Origin: an uncultured Gammaproteobacteria bacterium
Lineage (GTDB): Bacteria > Pseudomonadota > Gammaproteobacteria > JAADHQ01
DNA length: 64,000 nucleotides
Direction: 5' to 3'
Assembly: GCA_947258655.1 (NCBI GenBank)
Contig: CAMYJD010000018.1
Coordinates: 3,294 to 67,293, forward strand
A program made the translations under genes and the position numbers. Below are positions 41,708 to 51,352 of the stretch, one piece after another (position 1 is the first letter of the stretch; each line of letters begins with the position of its first letter). Below the pieces are notes generated by a model that was not told where the DNA came from, searched no databases, and saw nothing but the letters and a program-made list of their open reading frames with translations.

Positions 41708-41812
41708 CTTTACCCTGGATATAAACAGCTACTTATATTAAACTGTTAGATTACTTTGTTTAATGGTGCAATTTGCCCCCCCAGTTTTGTGAAGTATTGA
41801 CTCGTGAGTGAT

Positions 41813-43669
41813 ATGAACCAGGAAAAAATCAACGAAAACGCCCAGGATAAGCAATCCAGGCTCAGGATGCTGATTGCCAAGGGCAAGGAAAAAGGCTTTC
41901 TGACCTACCGGGAGGTCAATGACCACCTGCCCAATGAAATTGTGGATCCCGACCAGATCGAGGAAATCATCAGTGTTATCACTGAAATGGGCATTTCCGT
42001 ACACGAGACTGCCCCCGATGCAGACACGCTGCTGTTGCAGCAGGGCAAGGAAACCGACGAGGATGCGGCCGAAGAAGCCGCCGCAGCACTGGCCTCGGTT
42101 GAAGGCGACTTTGGCCGCACCACCGATCCTGTGCGTATGTATATGCGCGAAATGGGTACCGTCGAACTGTTGACCCGCGAAGGTGAAATCAAGATCGCCA
42201 AGCGTATTGAAGCCGGGCAGAAGCAGGTTCTGGAGGCACTGGCCAGCTACCCGTCAACCGTCGCCCACATCTTCTCTGTCTACGACAACATTATCGAGGA
42301 AGAAGGCCGCATCACCGACCTGATTACCGGCTTTGTCGATCCTGACGAGGATGACAGCTTTCCCCCGCCTGCTGCGCCCCCGGCTGCGGATAGCGATAGC
42401 ACAGAAGTCGCCGCTGACAGCGATGACGATGACGACGCAGAAGTCGTCGATACCGGCCCCGATCCGGAAGAGGTGGCTGCGCACATTGCAGACCTGAGAA
42501 AGCTGTATAACAAATACCAGACCCTGGCAAAGAAACACGGCTCTGCTGACGAACGCGCACTGAAACAGTATGCCAAGGCCATTGAAGTGTTTATGCAGTT
42601 CAAGCTGGCACCGAAAATTATCGAAAAATTGCTGAGTGACCTGCGTAGCATGGTCACACGTATCCGCAGACACGAACGTGTCATCATGGATATCTGCGTA
42701 CAGAAGGCACATATGCCGCGCAAGGAATTCATCACCACGTTCCCGGATAATGAAACCGACATGAACTGGCTCGACCAGCAGATCCAGTCCGGACAGAAAT
42801 ACTCGACGGTACTGGAAGAATATGCCGACGAGATTCGTATTGCGCAGAAGAAACTGCTGAAAATACAGGACGAGACCGGTCTCAGCATCAAGGAGATCAA
42901 GGATATCAATCGTCGCATGTCGATCGGTGAAGCCAAATCACGCCGGGCGAAAAAAGAGATGGTCGAGGCCAACCTGCGCCTGGTGATCTCGATTGCGAAA
43001 AAATATACCAACCGCGGCCTGCAGTTCCTCGACCTGATCCAGGAAGGCAATATCGGCCTGATGAAGGCGGTCGATAAATTCGAATACCGTCGTGGTTACA
43101 AGTTCTCGACCTATGCGACCTGGTGGATTCGCCAGGCCATCACGCGTTCGATCGCGGACCAGGCACGCACGATCCGTATCCCGGTGCATATGATCGAGAC
43201 CATCAACAAGCTCAATCGTATCGCGCGCCAGATGCTGCAGGAAATGGGCCGCGAACCCACACCGGAAGAACTGGCCGAACGCATGGAAATGCCGGAAGAC
43301 AAGATCCGCAAGGTGCTGAAGATCGCCAAGGAGCCGATCTCGATGGAAACCCCGATCGGCGACGACGAAGATTCGCATCTGGGAGACTTTATCGAAGACC
43401 TGAATGTGATGTCGCCATCCGACTCCGCCAACTCGGAAGGCCTGCGCGAAGCCACACATTATGTCCTGACCGGCCTGACCCCGCGTGAAGCCAAGGTCCT
43501 GCGTATGCGTTTCGGCATCGACATGAATACCGACCACACTCTCGAGGAAGTCGGCAAACAGTTCGATGTGACCCGTGAACGTATCCGCCAGATCGAAGCC
43601 AAGGCCCTGCGCAAGCTGCGTCATCCGTCGCGGTCCGAGGCGCTTCGAAGCTTCCTGGATCTGGAATAA
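41813..43669 (+). CDS. rpoD: RNA polymerase sigma-70 RpoD
   Basis: Regions 1.1 to 4.2 are conserved with an acidic spacer. An alternative GTG start lies at 41804. Confidence 0.9.
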
Positions 43670-43696
43670 GCCTAGCAAAATAAGCTGTAGTTTAAA

Positions 43697-43721
43697 GGGG
43701 TGCTCCAGGCACCCCTTTTTA
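43697..43721 (+). terminator. rho-independent terminator after rpoD
   Basis: ggggtgctccaggcacccc followed by TTTTTAT. Confidence 0.75.
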
Positions 43722-43740
43722 TTGACAGTGTCTAGTTGCC

Positions 43741-43901: not shown

Positions 43902-44237
43902 GGGCCTGTAGCTCAGTTGGTTAGAGCAGTGGACTCATCAAAAAGGTGCGTTCATACCGAAAGGTATGAAATGAACGGGATGAATTCAGGGAAACCTTAA
44001 CAGCCACAATTCTGTGGGCTGATGGCAATCCTGAGCCAAGCCGGAAGTACACTTCCGGAAGGTGCAGAGACTACCTGGGGACTGGTGTAAACCGAGCGTC
44101 CTTAATCACAGGCAAGAGCGTCCCGCGTCCTAACAAGCTTAATCGCGTTGAGGATGATGAGATAGTCCGCTCCTGATAGAAATATCCGGAACAAGTGAAT
44201 CCATTGGTCGAAGGTTCAAGTCCTTCCGGGCCCACCA
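43902..44237 (+). tRNA. tRNA(CAU), most similar to tRNA-Ile2 (lysidine), interrupted by a 259-nt group I intron at 43939-44197
   Basis: The exons 43902-43938 and 44198-44237 assemble to GGGCCTGTAGCTCAGTTGGTTAGAGCAGTGGACTCAT|AATCCATTGGTCGAAGGTTCAAGTCCTTCCGGGCCCACCA. The intron lies after a U, ends in G, and has a GTG IGS. Confidence 0.85.
43939..44197 (+). ncRNA. group I (Azoarcus/IC3-like) self-splicing intron within the tRNA(CAU) anticodon loop
   Basis: P2 'ttcatacc-GAAA-ggtatgaa'. 'GGGATGAATTCAGGGAAACCTTAA' and 'GGTGCAGAGACTAC' match Azoarcus pre-tRNA-Ile intron core elements. Confidence 0.8.
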
Positions 44238-44475
44238 TTCATTCTCATTCATGCTAAGTGTGCATGAAAGCATAGTTTGTTCAAAACGGCCAATTTATAG
44301 TTTTATGAAGGCATGAGTTCGCCGCGCTTCATAAATACAATATTCCGCTTACACCCTGCTACAGGCCGTTCAGACTTTTTGGTTATTCGTCAGAGAACGG
44401 CCAGAAGCAGCCGTTCCTTCCGACCGTCATCCCCGAATGACTTTGTCGGGGATCCATTCAAATATTAAAATTTCA

Positions 44476-44506: not shown

Positions 44507-45133
44507 TTAGCCGATACTCAACAGCATAAAGAGCCCACCTGACAGGATTGCCAGCGAACTTCCCAGCCGGGTCATGGTCGCCTGCAATGCGAAAGCACGG
44601 ATAACTGCGCCGATGATCAAATATTGAATAACAGAGAAGCCGATCAGGTAGGCCAGTAACGGGCCGGTTTCAGCGCCGACGATGGCTTCACCATAGGCAT
44701 AACCGTGGAATACACCGGATACGGCAAATACAGCACCGAGAAATACCGCGCCCAGGCTTTTTCTGGTCACAGCGATGATACCCGCGCCCAGCACTGACAA
44801 CGCGACCAGCGTTTCGGCAAACGGAATATTGCCATCAGCCAGATGAAAGACCGTGCCTCCAAGCGTGGCGGCGACGAACAACAGCGGCACGACATAGCGC
44901 GCCACCCCACTCAGGGTAAAGGCCAGTACTGCCGCTATCAGCAAGAATATAAAATGATCGAGGCCGATGACCGGATGCGCAATCCCGGAGATAAAGCCCT
45001 GGGCAAAGGTCACCGGCGTCTGCCCATCCATTGCATGATGCGCATTGGCCTCTGTTGCCATGAATAACATCATGGCTGCACCCATGCCCATATGACGGAG
45101 ATTAGAAGTATTTATATTAGTTAATGTGCTCAT
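44507..45133 (-). CDS. HupE/UreJ family Ni/Co transporter
   Basis: Signal peptide plus 'HPVIGLDHF' signature. Confidence 0.75.
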   Translation of the reverse strand: MSTLTNINTSNLRHMGMGAAMMLFMATEANAHHAMDGQTPVTFAQGFISGIAHPVIGLDHFIFLLIAAVLAFTLSGVARYVVPLLFVAATLGGTVFHLADGNIPFAETLVALSVLGAGIIAVTRKSLGAVFLGAVFAVSGVFHGYAYGEAIVGAETGPLLAYLIGFSVIQYLIIGAVIRAFALQATMTRLGSSLAILSGGLFMLLSIG

Positions 45134-45197
45134 TTGCTCACCCCTCAGTTATCTGCCATAAAAATTAATAAATCTATATAAATAATCACTAACATCG

Positions 45198-46238
45198 TTA
45201 TGCAGGTACAACAGCATATTGCTGAACCTGCCCTTGTTTATTGCCGGCAATCAGAATCTGATCGTCAGGTGACCATAGCAGGCGCGTAATCTCGGCATCA
45301 CCGGGCCATTTGCATACCGGTTCGAGGCCGTTCTTCAATTGCCAGATCAGGATGTCGCCATCCTGGGCAGCACTGGCCAGGTACGCTCCTTTATGCTGGT
45401 AACTCAATTGCGTTATGCGCTGACGATGACCCTTTAATACTTTCGGCGCTGTACCCGTCGGCCCCTTGCCCTTATTGCTCCACACAACGACTGTATTGCC
45501 GCCAGCGGTTGCAAGGTAATTGCCCTTGCTGTTCCAGCTGATATTGCTGACCTTTTCCGGATAACCTTTCATTTCGGCATGCCCACCTTTGTTCGCTGAC
45601 AGGCGCCAGAACTGCAACATTCTGTCCTGTGAACCGGCGCATATGCACTCACCATCCGGGCTCCATTCCAATGCAATCAGTGAACCCAGACAATGCAGAG
45701 TCTTGTAGGGCTTTGCACCTTGCATACGAAACAGGCGCACACCCTTGTAACAGGCAGTGGCGATTTCACGACTGTTAAATTTCCATTTGATCGCCGTGAT
45801 CGTACTGGGATGATCCTCGCTACGCAGTATTTCACTGCCTTGCTGATCCCAGACGATCAATGTTTTACCGCTGGCCGCCGCTAGCTTGTCAGCATCAGGC
45901 GACCAGGCAATGTGATCGACCCATATATCACTGACAGTACGCGAGCTCTGTAACTCTCCACTCGCAGGGTCCCAGAGCTTTATCAGCCCGTCCTGGCCTG
46001 CGCTTGCAATGACACCGCCATCCGCTCGCCACTCCACTTGTAGTACACCCGACACATGCGCGATGACAGACCAGATCATGACGCCGGCCTGGACATCAAA
46101 CACGCTTATCATGCCAGCCGCATCGGAAACCGCGACCTTGCCAGAATCAGGCGACCAGCTCAGGTCAGTCACGCAGTCGCCAACATTCCACTGCTGAACG
46201 GCATCATTTACTGTCGATTGTTGGACTAGACCAGACAT
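45198..46238 (-). CDS. WD40-repeat (beta-propeller) protein
   Basis: About 7 repeats with a 'xxSPDG...WD' pattern. Confidence 0.6.
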
Positions 46239-47611
46239 GCGTTAAATTCGCGCTCCAGTGACTCCCGATCCAGGTCCCGGCCAATAAATACCAGCTGGTT
46301 TATCCGTGCATCATCGCCCCAGGGGCGATCAGGCTCGCCATCGAACAGCATATGCACACCCTGAAAGATGAAGCGCCTGTCCTCACCCTGCAGGCTGACA
46401 ACGCCCTTCATACGGAATATATCCACGCCCTTGTTGCGTAATAACGTGGTAATCCAGTTTTCAAACAGGCCGGGGTCCAGATCACCACGGGCACTGATAC
46501 CGACTGAGGACACGCTGTCATCATGTTCATGCGGGGCCGCGTACTCCTGCGCTTTTTGCGCTTCATATACTGTCTCACCCGACTCCAGTGTCATCGTGAA
46601 CTCTTCCGGCAAATGCTGGGTAAACAGCGCATAATAGCCGCTGGCGGGTATTTGTATTTCGAAATCATTGTGTGCCTGACCAAGCTGTAACGCATACAGG
46701 TTTTGCGCAGGTATCAGACTACCACCAGGCATTACCGCAGCAGGCTCATCCGAAAACAATAGCATCCCCTGTTGCTTGGCCTTGTTGAAGTCGCTGTCTG
46801 CATCGCAACACAAGGGCAGGAGCACAACATTCATGGATGGATCGGGCCCTTGCAGACAACGCAGCATGTAGGAACCCGCATCCAGATGATACAGGCCACC
46901 CCATTCATACGGGAGTTCTTCCTGGAGAAAATCAGGATCGATATCGAGTTTGCCATCCAGGTCAAACGCATGCACATTTAGCACTTTATCCATATCAACG
47001 GCTGCCTGCGTCGTCCGGTGGATCCTGGCCACGGAATTCATCGAACTGATCTTTTCTTCCAACGCAGACAGCTCCGCGGCAGAAACCAGGTCGGTCTTGT
47101 TGAGCAGGATGACATCGGCAAATGCGATCTGTTCCTGACATTCATTACTGCTATCGATGTGGTTACTGACATGGCCGGCATCCACCAACGTTACGATAGC
47201 ATCCAGGCGCAGCTTGTCCTTGATCTCGTCGTCCATAAAGAATGTCTGCGCCACCGGGCCCGGGTCGGCCAGGCCTGTGGTCTCAATCATGATGTGATCG
47301 AAGGAGTCCCGACGTGCCATCAATCGGCCGAGTATACGAATCAGGTCTCCACGCACCGTGCAACAGATACAGCCGTTGTTCATTTCGAAAATTTCCTCGT
47401 TACTCTGGATCACGAGTTCATTATCGATGCCGATTTCGCCGTATTCGTTTTCTATGACAGCAATGCGCTTGCCATGCTCTTCGGTCAGAATGCGATTTAA
47501 TAGCGTTGTTTTGCCTGAACCGAGGAACCCGGTCAGCACCGTGACGGGCACTCTGTCATCAGCTAAATCAACGGCAACATCTTCTTTGACGGCGCTCATA
47601 CTTGTTACCAT
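46226..47611 (-). CDS. COG0523 (CobW/ZigA-like) metallochaperone GTPase with extended C-terminal domain
   Basis: P-loop 'GFLGSGKTT', CxCC motif 'GCICCTV', CobW C-terminal domain. Confidence 0.75.
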
Positions 47612-48045
47612 GAACGGTATGGCAGGAATTTACCATTCATCGTGACGACGACGCGGTCACCTGCAGGATTCTCTTCCTTGTCTATGGTCATATTGAAGTC
47701 AATTGCACTCATGATACCGTCACCAAACTTCTCATGAATAATTTCCTTGATCGTATCGCCATAGACACCCACGATTTCGTACAGGCGGTAGACGACCGGA
47801 TCGGTGGGCACCAGCTTGTCCCAGTGCTTATGTGGAAATTCCTGCAATGTCGCGCAGACATCGTCGCCCAGACCCAGTGCAGCACAACATTTCTCCGCCT
47901 GCTCCTTGGTCATACTATTCATGCCGAAACAGGCGGAGGTCACCCAGACAACGCCCATACCCATAGCATCAGCAATATCCTCCCAGGTTTTACCCTGTTC
48001 TTTTTTTGCCAGTACGATTGCATCGGTCATTTGCTCTTTGTTCAT
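47605..48045 (-). CDS. cynS: cyanate hydratase (cyanase) CynS
   Basis: C-terminal catalytic domain '[39 protein letters not shown]' closely matches E. coli CynS. Confidence 0.9.
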
Positions 48046-48053
48046 AACTTCTC

Positions 48054-48977
48054 CTACGCTTTATGTTTCTCTAGTTTTATTACCTGCTCATCACCTTCAA
48101 CCATATCGGTGGCAGGATTAACATCGGGTGGATACACCCGCTTCATGGATTCGCGTTGCTCTTGCCCGGCCCTGAGTTCCGGATTCGACAACTCTTTGGA
48201 ACGCTTGACCAGAAACTCCACCAGGTGATTACGAATAGGATAATAATTCGGGTGATGAATAATATCTGTACGTTCGCGGTGCCGTGGGATATCGACAACC
48301 ACGGATTCGGCTATCCGCGCGTATGGGCCATTGGTCATCAGCAGAATACGATCTGCCAGCAGAATGGCCTCATCGACGTCATGGGTAATCATGAATACCG
48401 TCTGATTGGTCTGCTCCCAGATTTTCATCAGCTCTTCCTGGATGATGCCGCGCGTGAGCGCATCCAGGGCTCCAAACGGCTCATCCATCAATAGCAACTT
48501 TGGCTCGATGGCAAAGGCACGCGCAATACTCACGCGCTGACGCATGCCACCCGATAATTGCGATGGCTTGCGATTTTCTGCACCGCCAAGGCCGACCATA
48601 TCGATATACTTCATGCTGTGTTCCAGCACCTGCTCCTTGCTCCATGATGGCCAACGGGCGCGCACCGCAAACGTGATGTTCCTCAGTGTGCTGATCCACG
48701 GTAATAAACTGTAATTCTGGAACACGACTCCGCGATCCAGACTGGGTCCGGCCACCTCGCGGCCATCCATCAGCACCGTGCCACTGCTGGCCTCATCCAG
48801 ACCGGCAAGGACATTGAGTATCGTGGACTTACCACAACCGGAATGCCCGATAATACAAATGAATTCGCCTTTATTGATACCAAAACTGGCGTTCTCAAAT
48901 ACCGTCAGGCTTTCCCCTCCTTTCGGGGCGGGAAAAGTCTTGCTCAAATCCTGGGCGTCTAAAAAGTAGTTTTCCAT
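48054..48977 (-). CDS. ABC transporter ATP-binding protein, nitrate/cyanate (NrtD/CynD) type
   Basis: Walker A 'GHSGCGKST', signature 'LSGGMRQRV', Walker B 'LLLMDEP'. Confidence 0.85.
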
Positions 48978-48984
48978 ATGTCGT

Positions 48985-49815
48985 CTATTCCACGTACTGG
49001 ACCATTTTGGTTGCCTTGGCCAGCAGTAAGTCCAGTACCATACCGACGATACCGATCATCAGGATGGAGAAAATAACTGCTGTCAGATCGAGATTGTTCC
49101 ACTCATTCCAGACGTAATAACCAATACCTGTTCCTCCAACCAGCATTTCTGCCGCAACGATAACAAGCCAGGCAATACCGATAGATATACGCATACCAGT
49201 CAGAATAGTGGGGGCTGCGGCCGGAAGGATCACCATGACCGCCGTGCGTAACTTGCTCAGCTCATGTGTACGCGCAATATTGATCCAGTCTTTCTTGACC
49301 GAACCGACACCAAACGCGGTGTTGATCAACATCGGCCAGATTGAACAGATAAAGATTACAAATACCGAGGATACTTCGGAGTCCTTCAAGATGAACAAGG
49401 CCAACGGCATCCATGCAAGCGGAGATATGGGTTTCAACACCTGGATAAATGGATCCAGCGCCTTATGCATCAACGGCGACATACCGATCATAAAACCGAT
49501 CGGTATGGCAATCAAGGCAGCAAGGAAGTAACCCGACATGACCCGCTTGATAGAATACAGCAGCTGCAGGCCGATGCCCTTGTCATTGGGGCCCTTGTCA
49601 TAGAACGGATCGCTCAATTCCGCTAGCGCGAGCGTGCCGATCTCGGAAGGATTGGGAACCCGGGCATGCGGCGCCGAACCTCCCATCAGCATTTCATACT
49701 CGGTCTTGGCTTCCTTGACTTCCGGTGGCTGATTGGCGATTTCCCAGACACCCAGGGTTACGATCAATATAACCACCGACAACAGTGCCGCCCGCACATT
49801 CAAACTACTTAACAT
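48985..49815 (-). CDS. ABC transporter permease, NrtB/CynB type
   Basis: 6-TM binding-protein-dependent permease with EAA-like loop. Confidence 0.85.
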
Positions 49816-49819
49816 CCTC

Positions 49820-51352
49820 CTATGTCCTCTTGATGGCGAAGCTCTCTATGTATTCCTCCGGCTTGGTATAGTCGAAGGTCTTACCCATGATGGTGTAGTT
49901 CTCGTAGGTCTTGGCTGGCGGTTCATAGCCAAGGTCCGTCATGAGCTTGCCACAATCGGCGGCCAGATAGACCTGCTCCGAGATCTTCTTGTAATCAACA
50001 TCGCCTTTGATATAACCCCAGCGTTTCATTTGCGTCAGTATCCACACGGCCATCGAATGCCAGGGGAATGGATCGAAATCGATACGATCCGGTTCATTAC
50101 GGACATTACCCAGACCATCGGCAAAACGCCCCGTCAGCACCTGCTCGACTACGGGCACGGGCTGATTCAGATAGTTTTTGGGTGAGATGGCCTTGGCGAT
50201 ATCCTTGCGGTTCTCTGCCCGAGATGAGAAATGTGTTGCATCCACAATGGATCTGAACAGCGCACCATAGGAATTCGGGTTCTCGCGAGCGAATTCCGCA
50301 CTCGTGGCAAAGGCGCAGCAGGGATGACCTTGCCAGATCTCCTTCGTCAGCAAGTGAATAAACCCGACCTTCTCCCATACCGCACGTTGATTGAACGGAT
50401 CCGGCGACAGGTAGCCATCGAGGTTTTCCGCACGCAGATTAGCAACCATTTCCGGTGGCGGTACAACGCGGATCTGGATGTCCTTATCCGGATCGAGACC
50501 ATGCTCGGCTACGTAGTAACGCAACAGGAAGTTATGCATCGAGTACTCAAACGGCACGCCAAATTTGAAGCCTTTCCATTTTTTCGGATCACGCTTGTCC
50601 TTGTGCTTGTTATGCAGAACAATGGCCTGGCCATTGATGTTCTCCACCGCCGGCATTATGAAAGGCATGGCCGTGGAACCGGCACCCATGGTCATGGCCA
50701 GCGGCATTGGGGTCAGCATATGGGCCGCGTCGTATTCCTTGTTAATGGATTTATCACGGGAAACCGCCCAACCGGCCGTCTTGATGACGTCCACATCGAG
50801 ACCATATTTGTCGTAGAAGCCCATCGGGTGCGCCATAATAATAGGTGTCGCACAGGTAATGGGTACAAAACCCACTTTAAGCTTCTTCTTCTCAAGCGGC
50901 CCAATCTTGTCCTTGAACGCGGCCTTGGCTGCCTCCATCGGGAATATGCTCGCCAGGATAGACGCTGCCGTACCACCACCTAGCATTTTCATGAAGTTAC
51001 GTCGCGAGGCTTCGTTATGACCGAACACTGCGCGTACCACAGCACTTTCAATGGCGCGATCGATAATGGTCTCGGGGGTTTCGGTAGGATTATCGGGAGA
51101 ACCGTCTGCCCTGAATGCATTCGGATCAGCAGGCGCTGCATCAGCACTGGCATCTGCATCAACATACTGGGAGTCAGTCGCTGTACCTTCATATACAGCC
51201 CGCTCCAGGCGCTCCGTCATTTCTGACTCTGTACACTCATAACGCGACTCGGCTTCTTCACGTTTGAATACACAAATAGGACAGTTACATGCAGGACCAT
51301 GCTGCAAATCACTTTCCGGATTAAATGGATCACCAAGACTCTTATTCGACAT
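49820..51352 (-). CDS. NrtA/CmpA/CynA-like periplasmic substrate-binding protein with a Tat-type 'SRRNFMKMLGG' signal. The ORF carries a ~105-aa Cys-rich upstream extension.
   Basis: Strong NrtA-family similarity after the RR motif. The extension contains 'GPACNCPIC...YEC'. The true start may be a GTG near residue 105. Confidence 0.7.
   Translation of the reverse strand: MSNKSLGDPFNPESDLQHGPACNCPICVFKREEAESRYECTESEMTERLERAVYEGTATDSQYVDADASADAAPADPNAFRADGSPDNPTETPETIIDRAIESAVVRAVFGHNEASRRNFMKMLGGGTAASILASIFPMEAAKAAFKDKIGPLEKKKLKVGFVPITCATPIIMAHPMGFYDKYGLDVDVIKTAGWAVSRDKSINKEYDAAHMLTPMPLAMTMGAGSTAMPFIMPAVENINGQAIVLHNKHKDKRDPKKWKGFKFGVPFEYSMHNFLLRYYVAEHGLDPDKDIQIRVVPPPEMVANLRAENLDGYLSPDPFNQRAVWEKVGFIHLLTKEIWQGHPCCAFATSAEFARENPNSYGALFRSIVDATHFSSRAENRKDIAKAISPKNYLNQPVPVVEQVLTGRFADGLGNVRNEPDRIDFDPFPWHSMAVWILTQMKRWGYIKGDVDYKKISEQVYLAADCGKLMTDLGYEPPAKTYENYTIMGKTFDYTKPEEYIESFAIKRT

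What the first reader, a model, noticed from the sequence alone, without database searches (positions are those of the whole stretch)
43902..44237. tRNA(CAU) gene split by an Azoarcus-type group I intron in a gammaproteobacterium
The two exons assemble into a canonical 77-nt tRNA with anticodon CAU. Its variable loop and T-arm most resemble tRNA-Ile2 (lysidine). The 259-nt insert sits in the anticodon loop, between positions 36 and 37. It follows a U, ends with G, and begins with a GTG IGS that can pair with exon ...CAU. It has a P2 hairpin with a GAAA loop. Its core segments (GGGATGAATTCAGGGAAACCTTAA and GGTGCAGAGACTAC) closely parallel the Azoarcus pre-tRNA-Ile IC3 intron. Group I introns in tRNA genes are known from cyanobacteria and a few alpha/beta-proteobacteria. 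They are rarely reported in gammaproteobacteria, although large sulfur bacteria are notorious for intron-rich genomes. The intron is about 55 nt longer than the Azoarcus one, so it may carry an extra peripheral helix. No homing endonuclease ORF is present.
Basis: partly seen in the sequence, partly recalled or inferred. Interest (0 to 1): 0.85.

Follow-up and report, generated by a model that had tools for sequence, protein, structure and literature searches.

The report
Self-splicing intron inside a tRNA-Ile gene
The tRNA gene that reads the rare isoleucine codon AUA is split by a 259-base self-splicing group I intron, but the same intron sits in the same gene in dozens of other gammaproteobacterial species, so this is an ordinary member of a known class.

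Summary
Window 43902-43938 and 44198-44237 join into a 77-nt cloverleaf tRNA(CAU). The 259 nt between them (43939-44197) match Rfam RF00028 at 84.4 bits (E 5e-20).

The tRNA is tRNA-Ile2. It is 83% identical to E. coli ileX/ileY and lies directly after tsaD-rpsU-dnaG-rpoD, where E. coli has ileX.

The intron sits at 36/37, the classical "Ile2.5Ug" site of the Azoarcus intron, and shares the Azoarcus P4-P7 core. It is not the compact Azoarcus form, however. It belongs to a longer subfamily with a conserved 39-nt hairpin (P7.1/P7.1a, 44074-44112) between P7 and P3'. That hairpin covaries across 85 homologues and also occurs in many phage-contig introns.

The rarity claim fails. One capped genome scan returned 97 split tRNA(CAU) genes, 84 of the long form, and 71 of those are labelled Gammaproteobacteria. 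Intron divergence tracks RpoD divergence (rho 0.70), which points to mostly vertical inheritance. There is no homing endonuclease.

Verdict: real and functional-looking, a new member of a known kind, low interest.

The parts
43902..43938 (+). tRNA-Ile2(CAU) exon 1: acceptor 5' strand, D arm, anticodon stem 5' strand, and loop C32 U33 C34 A35 U36. U36 (43938) is the -1 U at the 5' splice site.
   Evidence: ARAGORN cloverleaf on the spliced sequence; 83% identity to E. coli tRNA-Ile.
43939..44197 (+). Group I intron, 259 nt, with no ORF.
   Evidence: RF00028, 84.4 bits, E 5e-20; 85-sequence alignment: 94% of cells paired, 42 of 62 pairs with compensatory change.
43945..43948 (+). Internal guide sequence GGUG (intron nt 7-10). 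It forms P1 with exon C34-A35-U36 and intron C1, including the U36.G8 wobble at the splice site.
   Evidence: Read from the sequence. G8, T9 and G10 are invariant and G7 is over 90% conserved in alignment A1.
43951..43970 (+). P2 hairpin (8 bp) with a GAAA tetraloop (L2, 43959-43962).
   Evidence: All 8 pairs show compensatory changes.
43976..43982 (+). P3 5' strand, CGGGAUG.
   Evidence: 99.5% of cells paired with 44119-44125, and 3 pairs show double changes.
43986..44034 (+). P4-P5-P5a domain: P4 43986-43991/44029-44034, P5 43995-43996/44024-44025, P5a 44001-44021. The receptor-like CCUUAAC/GAUGG internal loop probably docks L9.
   Evidence: The receptor role is inferred by analogy with Azoarcus.
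44036..44062 (+). P6/P6a hairpin with a UACA loop.
   Evidence: (two full compensatory double changes relative to L240).
44064..44071 (+). P7 5' strand GCAGAGAC, which carries the guanosine-binding site. It forms a pseudoknot with 44165-44170.
   Evidence: alignment; (4 of 6 pairs invariant).
44074..44112 (+). Extra peripheral hairpin between P7 and P3' (P7.1/P7.1a). Basal stem CCUG/CAGG; internal loop G / UUAAUCA; distal stem GGAC/GUCC. The window clade also has a mini-hairpin GG-UGUAAA-CC and a conserved AG.
   Evidence: 43-nt insertion relative to the Rfam model; present in all 84 long-form homologues, absent from 13 short Azoarcus-type ones; 97.6% and 100% paired; GC:47 AU:25 CG:10 at one pair; predicted independently by RNAalifold.
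44119..44125 (+). P3 3' strand, CGUCCCG.
44127..44155 (+). P8 hairpin. The CCUAAC/UGAGG region resembles a receptor for L2.
   Evidence: 96.8% paired. The receptor role is inferred.
44156..44170 (+). J8/7 (GAUGAGAUA) and the P7 3' strand (GUCCGC).
   Evidence: GAGATAGTCC nearly invariant.
44172..44189 (+). P9 hairpin with a GAAA tetraloop (L9, 44179-44182).
   Evidence: All 7 pairs show compensatory changes.
44197..44197 (+). Omega G, the last intron nucleotide.
   Evidence: All 97 parsed homologues also end in G, but my parser required that, so it is not independent evidence.
44198..44237 (+). tRNA-Ile2 exon 2: A37 A38, anticodon stem 3' strand, variable loop UGGUC, T arm, acceptor 3' strand, discriminator A, and an encoded CCA.
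41804..43669 (+). rpoD, directly upstream. It is the last gene of tsaD(-)/rpsU/yqeY/dnaG/rpoD and gives the synteny that marks the tRNA as the ileX orthologue.
   Evidence: (E. coli K-12: tsaD, rpsU, dnaG, rpoD, mug, ileX).
43696..43722 (+). Hairpin GGGGUGC-uccag-GCACCCC followed by UUUUUAUU, a probable intrinsic terminator of rpoD. If real, the tRNA would need its own promoter or read-through.
   Evidence: Read directly from the sequence. The consensus scan did not list it.

Best explanation

Inferred mechanism, by homology with the Azoarcus pre-tRNA-Ile system:
1. The precursor folds so that exon CAU pairs with the intron's GGUG guide, forming P1 with a U36.G wobble.
2. The P3-P8 and P4-P6 domains assemble around P7.
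3. An exogenous guanosine bound in P7 attacks after U36.
4. The terminal G (44197) then takes the same pocket, and U36's 3'-OH attacks the 3' splice site.
5. This joins U36 to A37 and recreates the anticodon loop CU-CAU-AA.

Anticodon-loop modification (lysidine-34 by TilS, t6A37) probably has to wait for splicing, since the intron interrupts the loop; this is untested.

The intron belongs to a long subfamily of the classical 'Ile2.5Ug' tRNA introns. This subfamily keeps the Azoarcus-like core and the L2 and L9 GAAA loops, but adds a conserved hairpin (P7.1/P7.1a) between P7 and P3'. That hairpin most likely acts as a peripheral tertiary brace.

The subfamily is widespread in Gammaproteobacteria at this same rpoD-adjacent locus and appears to be inherited mainly vertically.
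For: - Group I identity: RF00028 at 84.4 bits, E 5e-20, full-length match.
- The spliced product is a canonical 77-nt tRNA(CAT).
- tRNA-Ile2 identity: 83.1% identity over 100% of the length to the E. coli genes annotated tRNA-Ile, two places per genome. The gene order is the same as E. coli tsaD-rpsU-dnaG-rpoD-(mug)-ileX. G1-C72, C4-G69, C5-G68 and G27.U43 are read from the sequence.
- Structure: on 85 homologues, 94% of cells are paired against 34-44% when partners are slid, and 42 of 62 pairs show compensatory changes. RNAalifold recovers the same helices, including the extra hairpin.
- Selection: against the closest relative (L240, 93% identical), all 6 differences in paired positions preserve pairing, and two are full double changes. 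The exons are identical.
- Distribution: 97 of 119 scan hits are tRNA(CAU) genes split at the same site. A RpoD homologue lies in 52 of those 119 loci.
- Inheritance: Mantel rho 0.70 between RpoD identity and intron identity, with 0 of 999 permutations as high.
- No ORF of endonuclease size.
Against: - Splicing itself is not shown. There is no RNA evidence and no assay.
- P10 is essentially absent (A6 in the window, where most relatives have U6), so exon alignment must rely on the tRNA anticodon stem.
- The role of the P7.1 hairpin is inferred from conservation alone.
- The second P7 pair is C.A in 35 of 85 homologues, so that pair is not verified by covariation.
- Only 64 kb of the genome is visible, so an intronless second tRNA-Ile2 copy cannot be excluded.
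Confidence: 0.9

Rival explanations
1. The host gene is an elongator tRNA-Met (or initiator tRNA-fMet), not tRNA-Ile2. The anticodon CAU alone cannot tell them apart.
For: ARAGORN labels the spliced product tRNA-Met(cat), as it does for any CAU anticodon.
Against: The best E. coli matches are the two tRNA-Ile(CAU) genes, at 83% over the full length. The gene occupies the ileX position after rpoD. G1-C72 is paired and the anticodon stem lacks three G-C pairs, so it is not an initiator. C4-G69/C5-G68, variable loop UGGUC and T loop UUCAAGU match E. coli tRNA-Ile2; the TilS determinants are recalled from Ikeuchi et al. 2005 and were not tested here.
Confidence: 0.04
2. The intron is a decayed, non-splicing remnant and the locus is a tRNA pseudogene.
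For: P10 is missing. There is no direct evidence of splicing. Only part of the genome is visible, so a second functional copy could exist.
Against: Every core helix is intact, and the nearly invariant core residues of 85 homologues are all present. Differences from the nearest relative are compensatory or fall in loops, and the exons are identical. The Rfam score is high. The same arrangement is kept across many families.
Confidence: 0.04
3. By structural class the intron is not IC3 (Azoarcus/cyanobacterial type) but subgroup IA, related to phage introns, because it has a P7.1-type element.
For: There is a hairpin between P7 and P3'. The same hairpin, with the UUAAUAA internal loop, is seen in many viral-contig introns that share the core motif. 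The P4-P7 core matches Staphylococcus Kayvirus and Klebsiella jumbo-phage introns at 70-77%. A 2026 survey places some Pseudomonadota tRNA-Ile2 introns in its IA clade (PMC13011429).
Against: GISSD marks the Ile2.5Ug type as IC3 (bioRxiv 10.1101/2020.01.27.920355). The L2 and L9 GAAA loops and receptor-like P5 and P8 are as in Azoarcus. There is one extended hairpin, not the paired P7.1 + P7.2 of IA2. The mosaics L161 and L192 link the two forms. Subgroup-specific covariance models could not be run.
Confidence: 0.35
4. The intron is a recent horizontal arrival by homing or reverse splicing, not an old resident of the locus.
For: Group I introns are mobile in general. Near-identical forms appear under odd taxonomic labels (L176 Verrucomicrobiales, L192 Elusimicrobia, three Bacteroidota). 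Split tRNA-Ile2 genes occur on viral contigs L100 and L021.
Against: There is no endonuclease gene. The same site at the same rpoD-linked locus is seen across many gammaproteobacterial families. Intron identity correlates with RpoD identity, rho 0.70, with 0 of 999 permutations as high. The nearest genome shares both the operon (82%) and the intron (93%).
Confidence: 0.1

Closest known systems
[quoted passage not shown]
   Same: Same host tRNA (Ile2, CAU). Same insertion site after U36, with a GUG guide pairing to CAU and a terminal G. Shared core motifs: AAUUC.G.GAAACC, GAGCCAAGC, AAGGUG.AGAGACUA, AUAGUCC. GAAA loops on P2 and P9. No ORF. Betaproteobacterial copies also lie next to rpoD.
   Different: The window intron is 54 nt longer (259 vs 205; PMC13168695). 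Identity to Azoarcus-type sequences is only about 50%. The P3, P8 and P9 sequences differ. It has the 39-nt P7.1/P7.1a hairpin, which the 13 short-form introns lack.
'Ile2.5Ug' class of bacterial tRNA group I introns (Williams 2020, tFind; GISSD)
   Same: Matches the definition exactly: tRNA-Ile2, insertion at anticodon-loop position 5, U at -1, G at omega.
   Different: None at the level of that definition. The survey text read here does not separate the short and long (P7.1-bearing) forms.
Cyanobacterial/plastid tRNA-Leu(UAA) group I intron (IC3)
   Same: An ORF-less intron in a tRNA anticodon loop, long-lived and largely vertically inherited within a bacterial lineage, with a related core.
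   Different: Different tRNA and site (34/35), and the core ends in ...AGAGACUC rather than ...ACUA (both from memory); whether it has a hairpin after P7 was not checked here.
Phage group I introns with P7.1/P7.2 (subgroup IA2, e.g. Staphylococcus phage Twort and Kayvirus, T4 td)
   Same: A peripheral element inserted between P7 and P3'. The P4-P7 core is similar at the sequence level. Many viral-contig introns have the same CUGG...UUAAUAA...CCAG hairpin.
   Different: They sit in protein-coding genes, often carry homing endonuclease ORFs, and typically have two hairpins (P7.1 and P7.2, from memory). Similarity to the window is limited to about 40% of its length.
IA-type tRNA-Asn/Asp introns of Patescibacteria (mSystems 2026, PMC13011429)
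   Same: Group I introns in a tRNA anticodon loop with a P7.1 helix. That paper reports them as phylogenetically close to some Pseudomonadota tRNA-Ile2 introns.
   Different: Different tRNAs and site (35/36), and some encode HNH endonucleases.

Membership tests
Group I intron (Rfam RF00028) | Score at or above the curated gathering threshold over the catalytic core | tested here: met
   84.4 bits against 50, E 5.1e-20, model positions 1-253 of 253.
Group I intron (Rfam RF00028) | U at -1 forming a U.G wobble in P1 with an internal guide sequence, and G as the last intron nucleotide | tested here: met
   U36 (43938) with G8 of GGUG (43945-48), and G at 44197. GUG is invariant in 85 homologues.
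Group I intron (Rfam RF00028) | P3-P8 and P4-P6 domains with the P3/P7 pseudoknot, supported by covariation | tested here: met
   94% of cells paired against 34-44% in slid controls, and 42 of 62 pairs compensatory. RNAalifold agrees. P7 itself is nearly invariant, so it is neither supported nor contradicted by covariation.
Group I intron (Rfam RF00028) | Guanosine-dependent self-splicing | not testable with these tools
   Needs an in vitro splicing assay or RNA-seq.
Azoarcus-type compact IC3 tRNA-Ile intron | Located in tRNA-Ile2(CAU) between positions 36 and 37 | tested here: met
Azoarcus-type compact IC3 tRNA-Ile intron | Compact architecture of about 205 nt, with P7 followed directly by P3' and no peripheral element | tested here: not met
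   The intron is 259 nt, with a 39-nt covarying hairpin between P7 and P3'. The short forms go straight from AGAGACUA to GACGGC.
Azoarcus-type compact IC3 tRNA-Ile intron | GAAA tetraloops on P2 and P9 with receptors in P8 and P5 | tested here: inconclusive
   L2 and L9 are GAAA (one search gives L9 as more than 90% conserved). The P5 (CCUUAAC/GAUGG) and P8 (CCUAAC/UGAGG) loops only resemble the 11-nt receptor, and docking cannot be tested.
Azoarcus-type compact IC3 tRNA-Ile intron | Close sequence relationship to the Azoarcus intron | tested here: not met
   50-52% identity to three short-form introns, against 84-93% to long-form relatives.
Subgroup IA group I introns | Extra pairing(s) P7.1/P7.2 or P7.1/P7.1a between P7 and P3' (Michel & Westhof criteria, from memory; PMC3984707 names P7.1 and P7.2 as class features) | tested here: met
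   One extended hairpin with an internal loop at 44074-44112.
Subgroup IA group I introns | Best score with a subgroup-specific covariance model | not testable with these tools
   The subgroup models are not available here, and Rfam has a single group I model.
tRNA-Ile2 (lysidine tRNA, ileX/ileY type) | Anticodon CAU in a canonical elongator cloverleaf, without initiator features | tested here: met
   G1-C72 is paired, and the anticodon stem GUGGA/UCCAU lacks the three consecutive G-C pairs.
tRNA-Ile2 (lysidine tRNA, ileX/ileY type) | Closer to known tRNA-Ile2 than to tRNA-Met | tested here: met
   The listed top E. coli hits are annotated tRNA-Ile, at 83.1% over 77 nt, with a median of 2 places per genome. 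K-12 ileX is annotated tRNA-Ile(CAU).
tRNA-Ile2 (lysidine tRNA, ileX/ileY type) | Conserved genomic position downstream of rpoD | tested here: met
   Window: tsaD(-), rpsU, yqeY, dnaG, rpoD, tRNA. E. coli: tsaD(-), rpsU, dnaG, rpoD, mug(-), ileX.
tRNA-Ile2 (lysidine tRNA, ileX/ileY type) | C34 converted to lysidine by TilS; charged by IleRS | not testable with these tools
   C4-G69 and C5-G68 (E. coli TilS determinants, from memory) are present in the sequence. The modification needs biochemistry.

The most novel reading that the evidence does not exclude
The long, P7.1-bearing form may be the ancestral and dominant version of the tRNA-Ile2 intron. On this reading it has been fixed at the rpoD-ileX locus since early in the Gamma/Betaproteobacteria radiation. 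The famous minimal Azoarcus ribozyme would then be a reduced derivative that lost this hairpin.

That would give a natural 'with brace / without brace' pair for studying how a peripheral element contributes to group I folding. It would also be a second example, after cyanobacterial tRNA-Leu, of a very old, vertically inherited bacterial intron.

The papers I could read do not separate the two forms, but I could not see the full survey tables.
Probability: 0.3. Interest if true: 0.4.

Novelty: new member of a known kind. Interest (0 to 1): 0.2.

Why it matters
The practical point is annotation. Default tRNA finders miss this gene, which makes a genome look as if it cannot decode AUA. [quoted passage not shown]

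For ribozyme biology, the window adds one more sequence to a large natural family related to the Azoarcus model ribozyme. Unlike Azoarcus, the family carries a conserved extra hairpin. The comparative set gathered here (85 sequences with strong covariation) could guide deletion and folding experiments.

It does not change what is known about where group I introns occur. The 'Ile2.5Ug' type is classical, and here it proves common in Gammaproteobacteria.

Tried and rejected
- Exact-sequence look-ups of window DnaG, CynS and YqeY found no source contig. Only RpsU matched. It led to the relative L240, not to the window's own genome, so the host is placed only as an uncultured gammaproteobacterium.
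- A paper search for the related assembly and contig accessions found nothing.
- Table S5 of the 2026 survey is truncated in the held copy and has no Pseudomonadota rows, so I could not see how that study classified long-form Ile2 introns.
- ARAGORN's intron placement is unreliable. It reported spurious anticodons for the homologues and i(39,244) for the window, so I parsed exons with my own script.
- MAFFT misaligns short and long forms after P7, so the 50% identity figure is approximate.
- The core motif alone (GAGCCAAG...AAGGTGYAGAGACTA) is too generic. It gave more than 120 viral contigs, so the genome scan was anchored on CTCAT.
- The promoter/terminator scan listed nothing useful, although an rpoD terminator hairpin is visible by eye.
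- I considered a kink-turn or T-loop reading of the UUAAUCA internal loop and dropped it, because the sequence does not fit either consensus.
- The idea that the host is a large sulfur bacterium has no support in anything retrieved.
- The metagenome scan, structure prediction and the big protein searches were not used, because they would not bear on the question.
Full report
**1. The observation**

- Exon 1 is 43902-43938 (37 nt, ending ...GGACTCAT).
- The insert is 43939-44197 (259 nt, starting CAAAAAGGTGCG and ending ...AACAAGTG).
- Exon 2 is 44198-44237 (40 nt, AATCCATTGGTC...GGGCCCACCA).

Joined, the exons give a 77-nt sequence that ARAGORN folds as a canonical cloverleaf with anticodon CAT. 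With introns allowed, ARAGORN finds the gene ends at 43902 and 44237, although it misplaces the intron. The default ARAGORN run finds only a tRNA-Phe elsewhere in the window and misses this gene.

Rfam's group I model RF00028 matches 43927-44189 on the + strand over its whole length, at 84.4 bits (gathering score 50) and E 5.1e-20. It is the only such hit in 64 kb. The single-sequence fold has z = -3.2 against shuffles and already shows P2, P3, P4-P5, P6, P8 and P9.

The splice position cannot be slid, because the bases on either side of each junction differ. It follows a U and ends in a G. The only ORFs overlapping the intron are antisense and 43-55 aa long, so there is no homing endonuclease.

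**2. Which tRNA**

CAU is shared by tRNA-fMet, tRNA-Met and tRNA-Ile2. The spliced sequence has a paired G1-C72 and no run of three G-C pairs in the anticodon stem, so it is not an initiator.

Against all complete E. coli genomes, its best matches are genes annotated tRNA-Ile, at 83.1% over the full 77 nt, typically two places per genome. One of these is the ileY-type copy.

The upstream genes in the window are tsaD (-), rpsU, yqeY, dnaG and rpoD. In E. coli K-12 the order is tsaD (-), rpsU, dnaG, rpoD, mug (-), ileX = tRNA-Ile(CAU). The gene is therefore the ileX orthologue.

C4-G69, C5-G68 and G27.U43 are present in the sequence. These are E. coli TilS/tRNA-Ile2 features recalled from memory, not tested here.

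**3. Relatives**

A pattern anchored on the anticodon and two core motifs (CTCAT N75-105 GAGCCAAG N5-35 GGTGYAGAGACTA) was scanned over one genome per GTDB species.

My exon parser recognised 97 of them as Ile2-like tRNA(CAU) genes split at the same position, with introns of 202-321 nt. They fall into two forms.
- **Short form.** Thirteen introns of 202-223 nt begin AGCGAAAGTTGTGC or AAAATTTGTGCC and end CAAACCGG. After AGAGACTA they run straight into GACGGC... (P3'). This is the Azoarcus type, found in Polynucleobacter, Rubrivivax, Chitinibacter, Rhodocyclaceae and similar hosts.
- **Long form.** Eighty-four introns of 221-321 nt begin CAAAAnGGTGCG and mostly end AGTG, CGTG or CGCG. All have an extra segment between AGAGACTA and GAGCGTCCCGC. 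The window belongs here.

By record title, 71 of the 84 long-form loci are labelled Gammaproteobacteria or a gammaproteobacterial family:
- Steroidobacteraceae, Woeseiaceae, Azotimanducaceae and Granulosicoccaceae;
- Rhodanobacter, Dyella, Lysobacter and Luteimonas;
- Ectothiorhodospiraceae, Acidiferrobacterales, Salinisphaeraceae, Arenicellales and Rariloculaceae;
- the K189A clade and Pseudomonadales.

Six are labelled only Proteobacteria. The rest are three Bacteroidota, one Azonexus, one Elusimicrobia, one Verrucomicrobiales-labelled MAG and one unclassified.

A RpoD homologue lies in 52 of the 119 stored stretches, in both forms.

The closest relative came from an exact RpsU look-up: NCBI GCA_947258755.1 contig CAMYJO010000004.1 (L240). 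It has the same gene order and 82% nucleotide identity over the operon. Identity is 92% over the tRNA region, and an RF00028 hit scores 83.2 bits. Relatives in the RpsU cluster are labelled 'Gammaproteobacteria bacterium'. The host is thus an uncultured gammaproteobacterium. Nothing retrieved points to large sulfur bacteria.

**4. Structure and the extra helix**

I aligned the window intron with the 84 long-form introns (A1). I then wrote a structure on the alignment: P2, P3, P4, P5, P5a, P6, P6a, P7 as a pseudoknot, the extra hairpin, P8 and P9.
- Of 5240 cells, 94.0% form standard pairs. This compares with 81.7% when partners are shuffled and 34-44% when partners are slid by 1-3 columns.
- 42 of 62 pairs show changes on both sides.
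- RNAalifold, run independently on the same alignment, recovers the same helices, with 38 of 52 predicted pairs compensatory.

The extra element is intron nt 136-174, window 44074-44112.
- Basal stem CCUG/CAGG is 97.6% paired. It is replaced by GCGG/CCGC, GUGG/CCAC, AGAAG/CUUCU and others in distant members.
- The asymmetric internal loop is G versus UUAAUCA (consensus UURAUNA).
- Distal stem GGAC/GUCC is 100% paired, with GC:47 AU:25 CG:10 at one pair.
- The loop carries a conserved AG.
- In the window, L240, L211, L227 and L236, a further small hairpin (GG...CC) is inserted in that loop.
- Other members have much larger insertions at the same spot, so this loop is the family's expansion point.

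Its position between P7 and P3' is that of P7.1/P7.1a in Michel-Westhof nomenclature. The conserved unpaired residues suggest a tertiary contact, but that is inference.

Against L240, the window intron differs at 19 positions. Six lie in helices and all six preserve pairing, including two complete double changes in P6a. The exons are identical. That pattern indicates an RNA under selection for its fold, not a decaying remnant.

**5. Is it 'Azoarcus-type'?**

The same:
- host tRNA and insertion site;
- GUG guide;
- GAAA loops on P2 and P9;
- core strings AAUUC.G.GAAACC, GAGCCAAGC, AAGGUG.AGAGACUA and AUAGUCC.

Different:
- overall identity to three short-form introns is only 50-52%, against 84-93% to long-form relatives;
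- P3, P8 and P9 differ in sequence;
- the P7.1 hairpin is present.

That hairpin is not peculiar to tRNA-Ile introns. Among 120 viral contigs carrying the same P6-P7 core, many continue with the same CUGG-A-GAGG...CCUC-UUAAUAA-CCAG hairpin before ...AGCGYCC.

BLAST against phage genomes matches only the P4-P7 core (nt 29-135), in Klebsiella jumbo phages and in Staphylococcus Kayvirus (Twort-like) phages, a few of whose records annotate the site as a group I intron.

Two scan hits (L161 and L192) combine short-form ends with the hairpin.

GISSD files the Ile2 type under IC3. A 2026 survey places some Pseudomonadota tRNA-Ile2 introns in its IA clade. I could not run subgroup models, so IC3 versus IA stays open. 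What is tested and not met is membership of the compact Azoarcus form.

**6. Inheritance**

For 30 genomes with both a full RpoD and a long-form intron, pairwise RpoD identity and pairwise intron identity correlate at Spearman/Mantel rho 0.70, with 0 of 999 permutations as high.

Add the fixed rpoD-adjacent locus and the lack of an endonuclease, and this points to mainly vertical descent. The odd taxonomic labels and the viral contigs L100 and L021 leave room for occasional transfer or mis-binning.

**7. What is already known**

- Williams (bioRxiv 10.1101/2020.01.27.920355) lists Ile2.5Ug as one of four classical bacterial tRNA-intron types. That study found 5292 split tRNA genes in about 80,000 genomes.
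- The tRNAscan-SE 2.0 paper reports tRNA-Ile2 genes missed because of group I introns in Acidovorax and Burkholderia (PMC8450103).
- The 2026 mSystems survey found 333 such tRNAs in 4,934 complete genomes, with Pseudomonadota introns mainly at 33/34, 34/35 and 36/37 (PMC13011429).

The kind is therefore known, and the present data show it is common in Gammaproteobacteria. I found no text that distinguishes the long, P7.1-bearing Ile2 form from the Azoarcus form, but I could not see the full tables.

**8. Mechanism**

Shown by sequence and comparison: the P1 to P9 architecture, the -1 U and omega G, and selection on pairing.

Inferred by homology with Azoarcus: guanosine attack after U36, then attack by U36's 3'-OH after G44197. 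This gives the loop CU-CAU-AA, after which TilS and the t6A machinery can act.

Weak point: P10 is practically absent in the window (A6 where most relatives have U6). Exon alignment presumably relies on the anticodon stem.

**9. Verdict**

This is a real, intact-looking group I intron in the ileX-type tRNA-Ile2 gene of an uncultured gammaproteobacterium. It is a new member of a known and, in genomes, abundant kind. The claim of rarity, which drove the high score, does not hold. Interest 0.2.

The most novel reading still open is that the long form is ancestral and the Azoarcus ribozyme a reduced derivative. I put that at about 0.3, with moderate interest if true.

Noticed in passing
window 44094-44101 and 44116-44123: The octamer GAGCGTCC occurs twice, once as the 3' strand of the extra hairpin and once as the linker plus P3 3' strand. 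The first copy could pair with the P3 5' strand (CGGGAUG, 43976-43982) as an alternative fold. It could also be a trace of origin by local duplication.
   Followed up: no
window 44065 with 44169 (intron C127:G231); alignment A1 columns 169/349: The second P7 pair is C-G in 50 homologues and C.A in 35, with C127 invariant. This position tolerates a mismatch and shows no covariation.
   Followed up: no
window 43902-44237: Default ARAGORN misses the split tRNA entirely. In intron mode it gets the gene ends right but misplaces the intron, and for the homologues it reports spurious anticodons (ctg, ccg, cta). Standard annotation would therefore report this genome as lacking tRNA-Ile2.
   Followed up: partly
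L100 and L021 (IMG/VR viral contigs): Both carry a short Azoarcus-type intron. In L100 it is followed by a tRNA-Ile2-like exon 2 (AATCCTTTGGTCGTGGGTTCAAATCC). So a split tRNA-Ile2 gene occurs on a contig classed as viral: phage-borne, next to a prophage, or misclassified.
   Followed up: no
L161 430-650 (-) and L192 7211-7446 (+): These are mosaic introns. The 5' and 3' ends resemble the short betaproteobacterial form (L161 AGCGAAAGCTGTGC..., both ...AACCTG), but they carry the P7.1 hairpin with covarying basal stems (GCGG/CCGC, GUGG/CCAC). They may be intermediates between the two forms.
   Followed up: partly
L001-L120 (viral contigs): Many phage-contig group I introns that share the GAGCCAAG...AAGGTGYAGAGACTA core have the same hairpin with a UUAAUAA internal loop after P7. 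A second recurrent variant is CTGGGGGTAACACGATCTTGTTACGTAATACCAG. The host genes were not examined.
   Followed up: partly
window 43696-43722: The hairpin GGGGUGC-uccag-GCACCCC followed by UUUUUAUU sits 27 nt after the rpoD stop codon and is a likely intrinsic terminator. The consensus scan did not list it. No convincing sigma-70 promoter was found between it and the tRNA.
   Followed up: partly
window 44238-44279: The 42 nt downstream of the tRNA 3' end lie within the aligned block that is 92% identical to L240. They contain a CATGC...GCATG inverted repeat, possibly a processing or termination signal.
   Followed up: no
window 44507-51352 (- strand): The downstream gene cluster, read by eye from the ORF translations, comprises a HupE/UreJ-like membrane protein, a WD40 protein, a CobW/G3E-type GTPase, cyanase (cynS-like, 47605-48045) and a nitrate/cyanate-type ABC transporter (48054-51352).
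   Followed up: no
L122, L142, L143, L148, L209, L223, L232: RpoD homologues also lie within these loci, which come from betaproteobacterial or proteobacterial genomes and mostly carry the short Azoarcus-type intron. Both intron forms therefore appear to occupy the same orthologous locus.
   Followed up: partly
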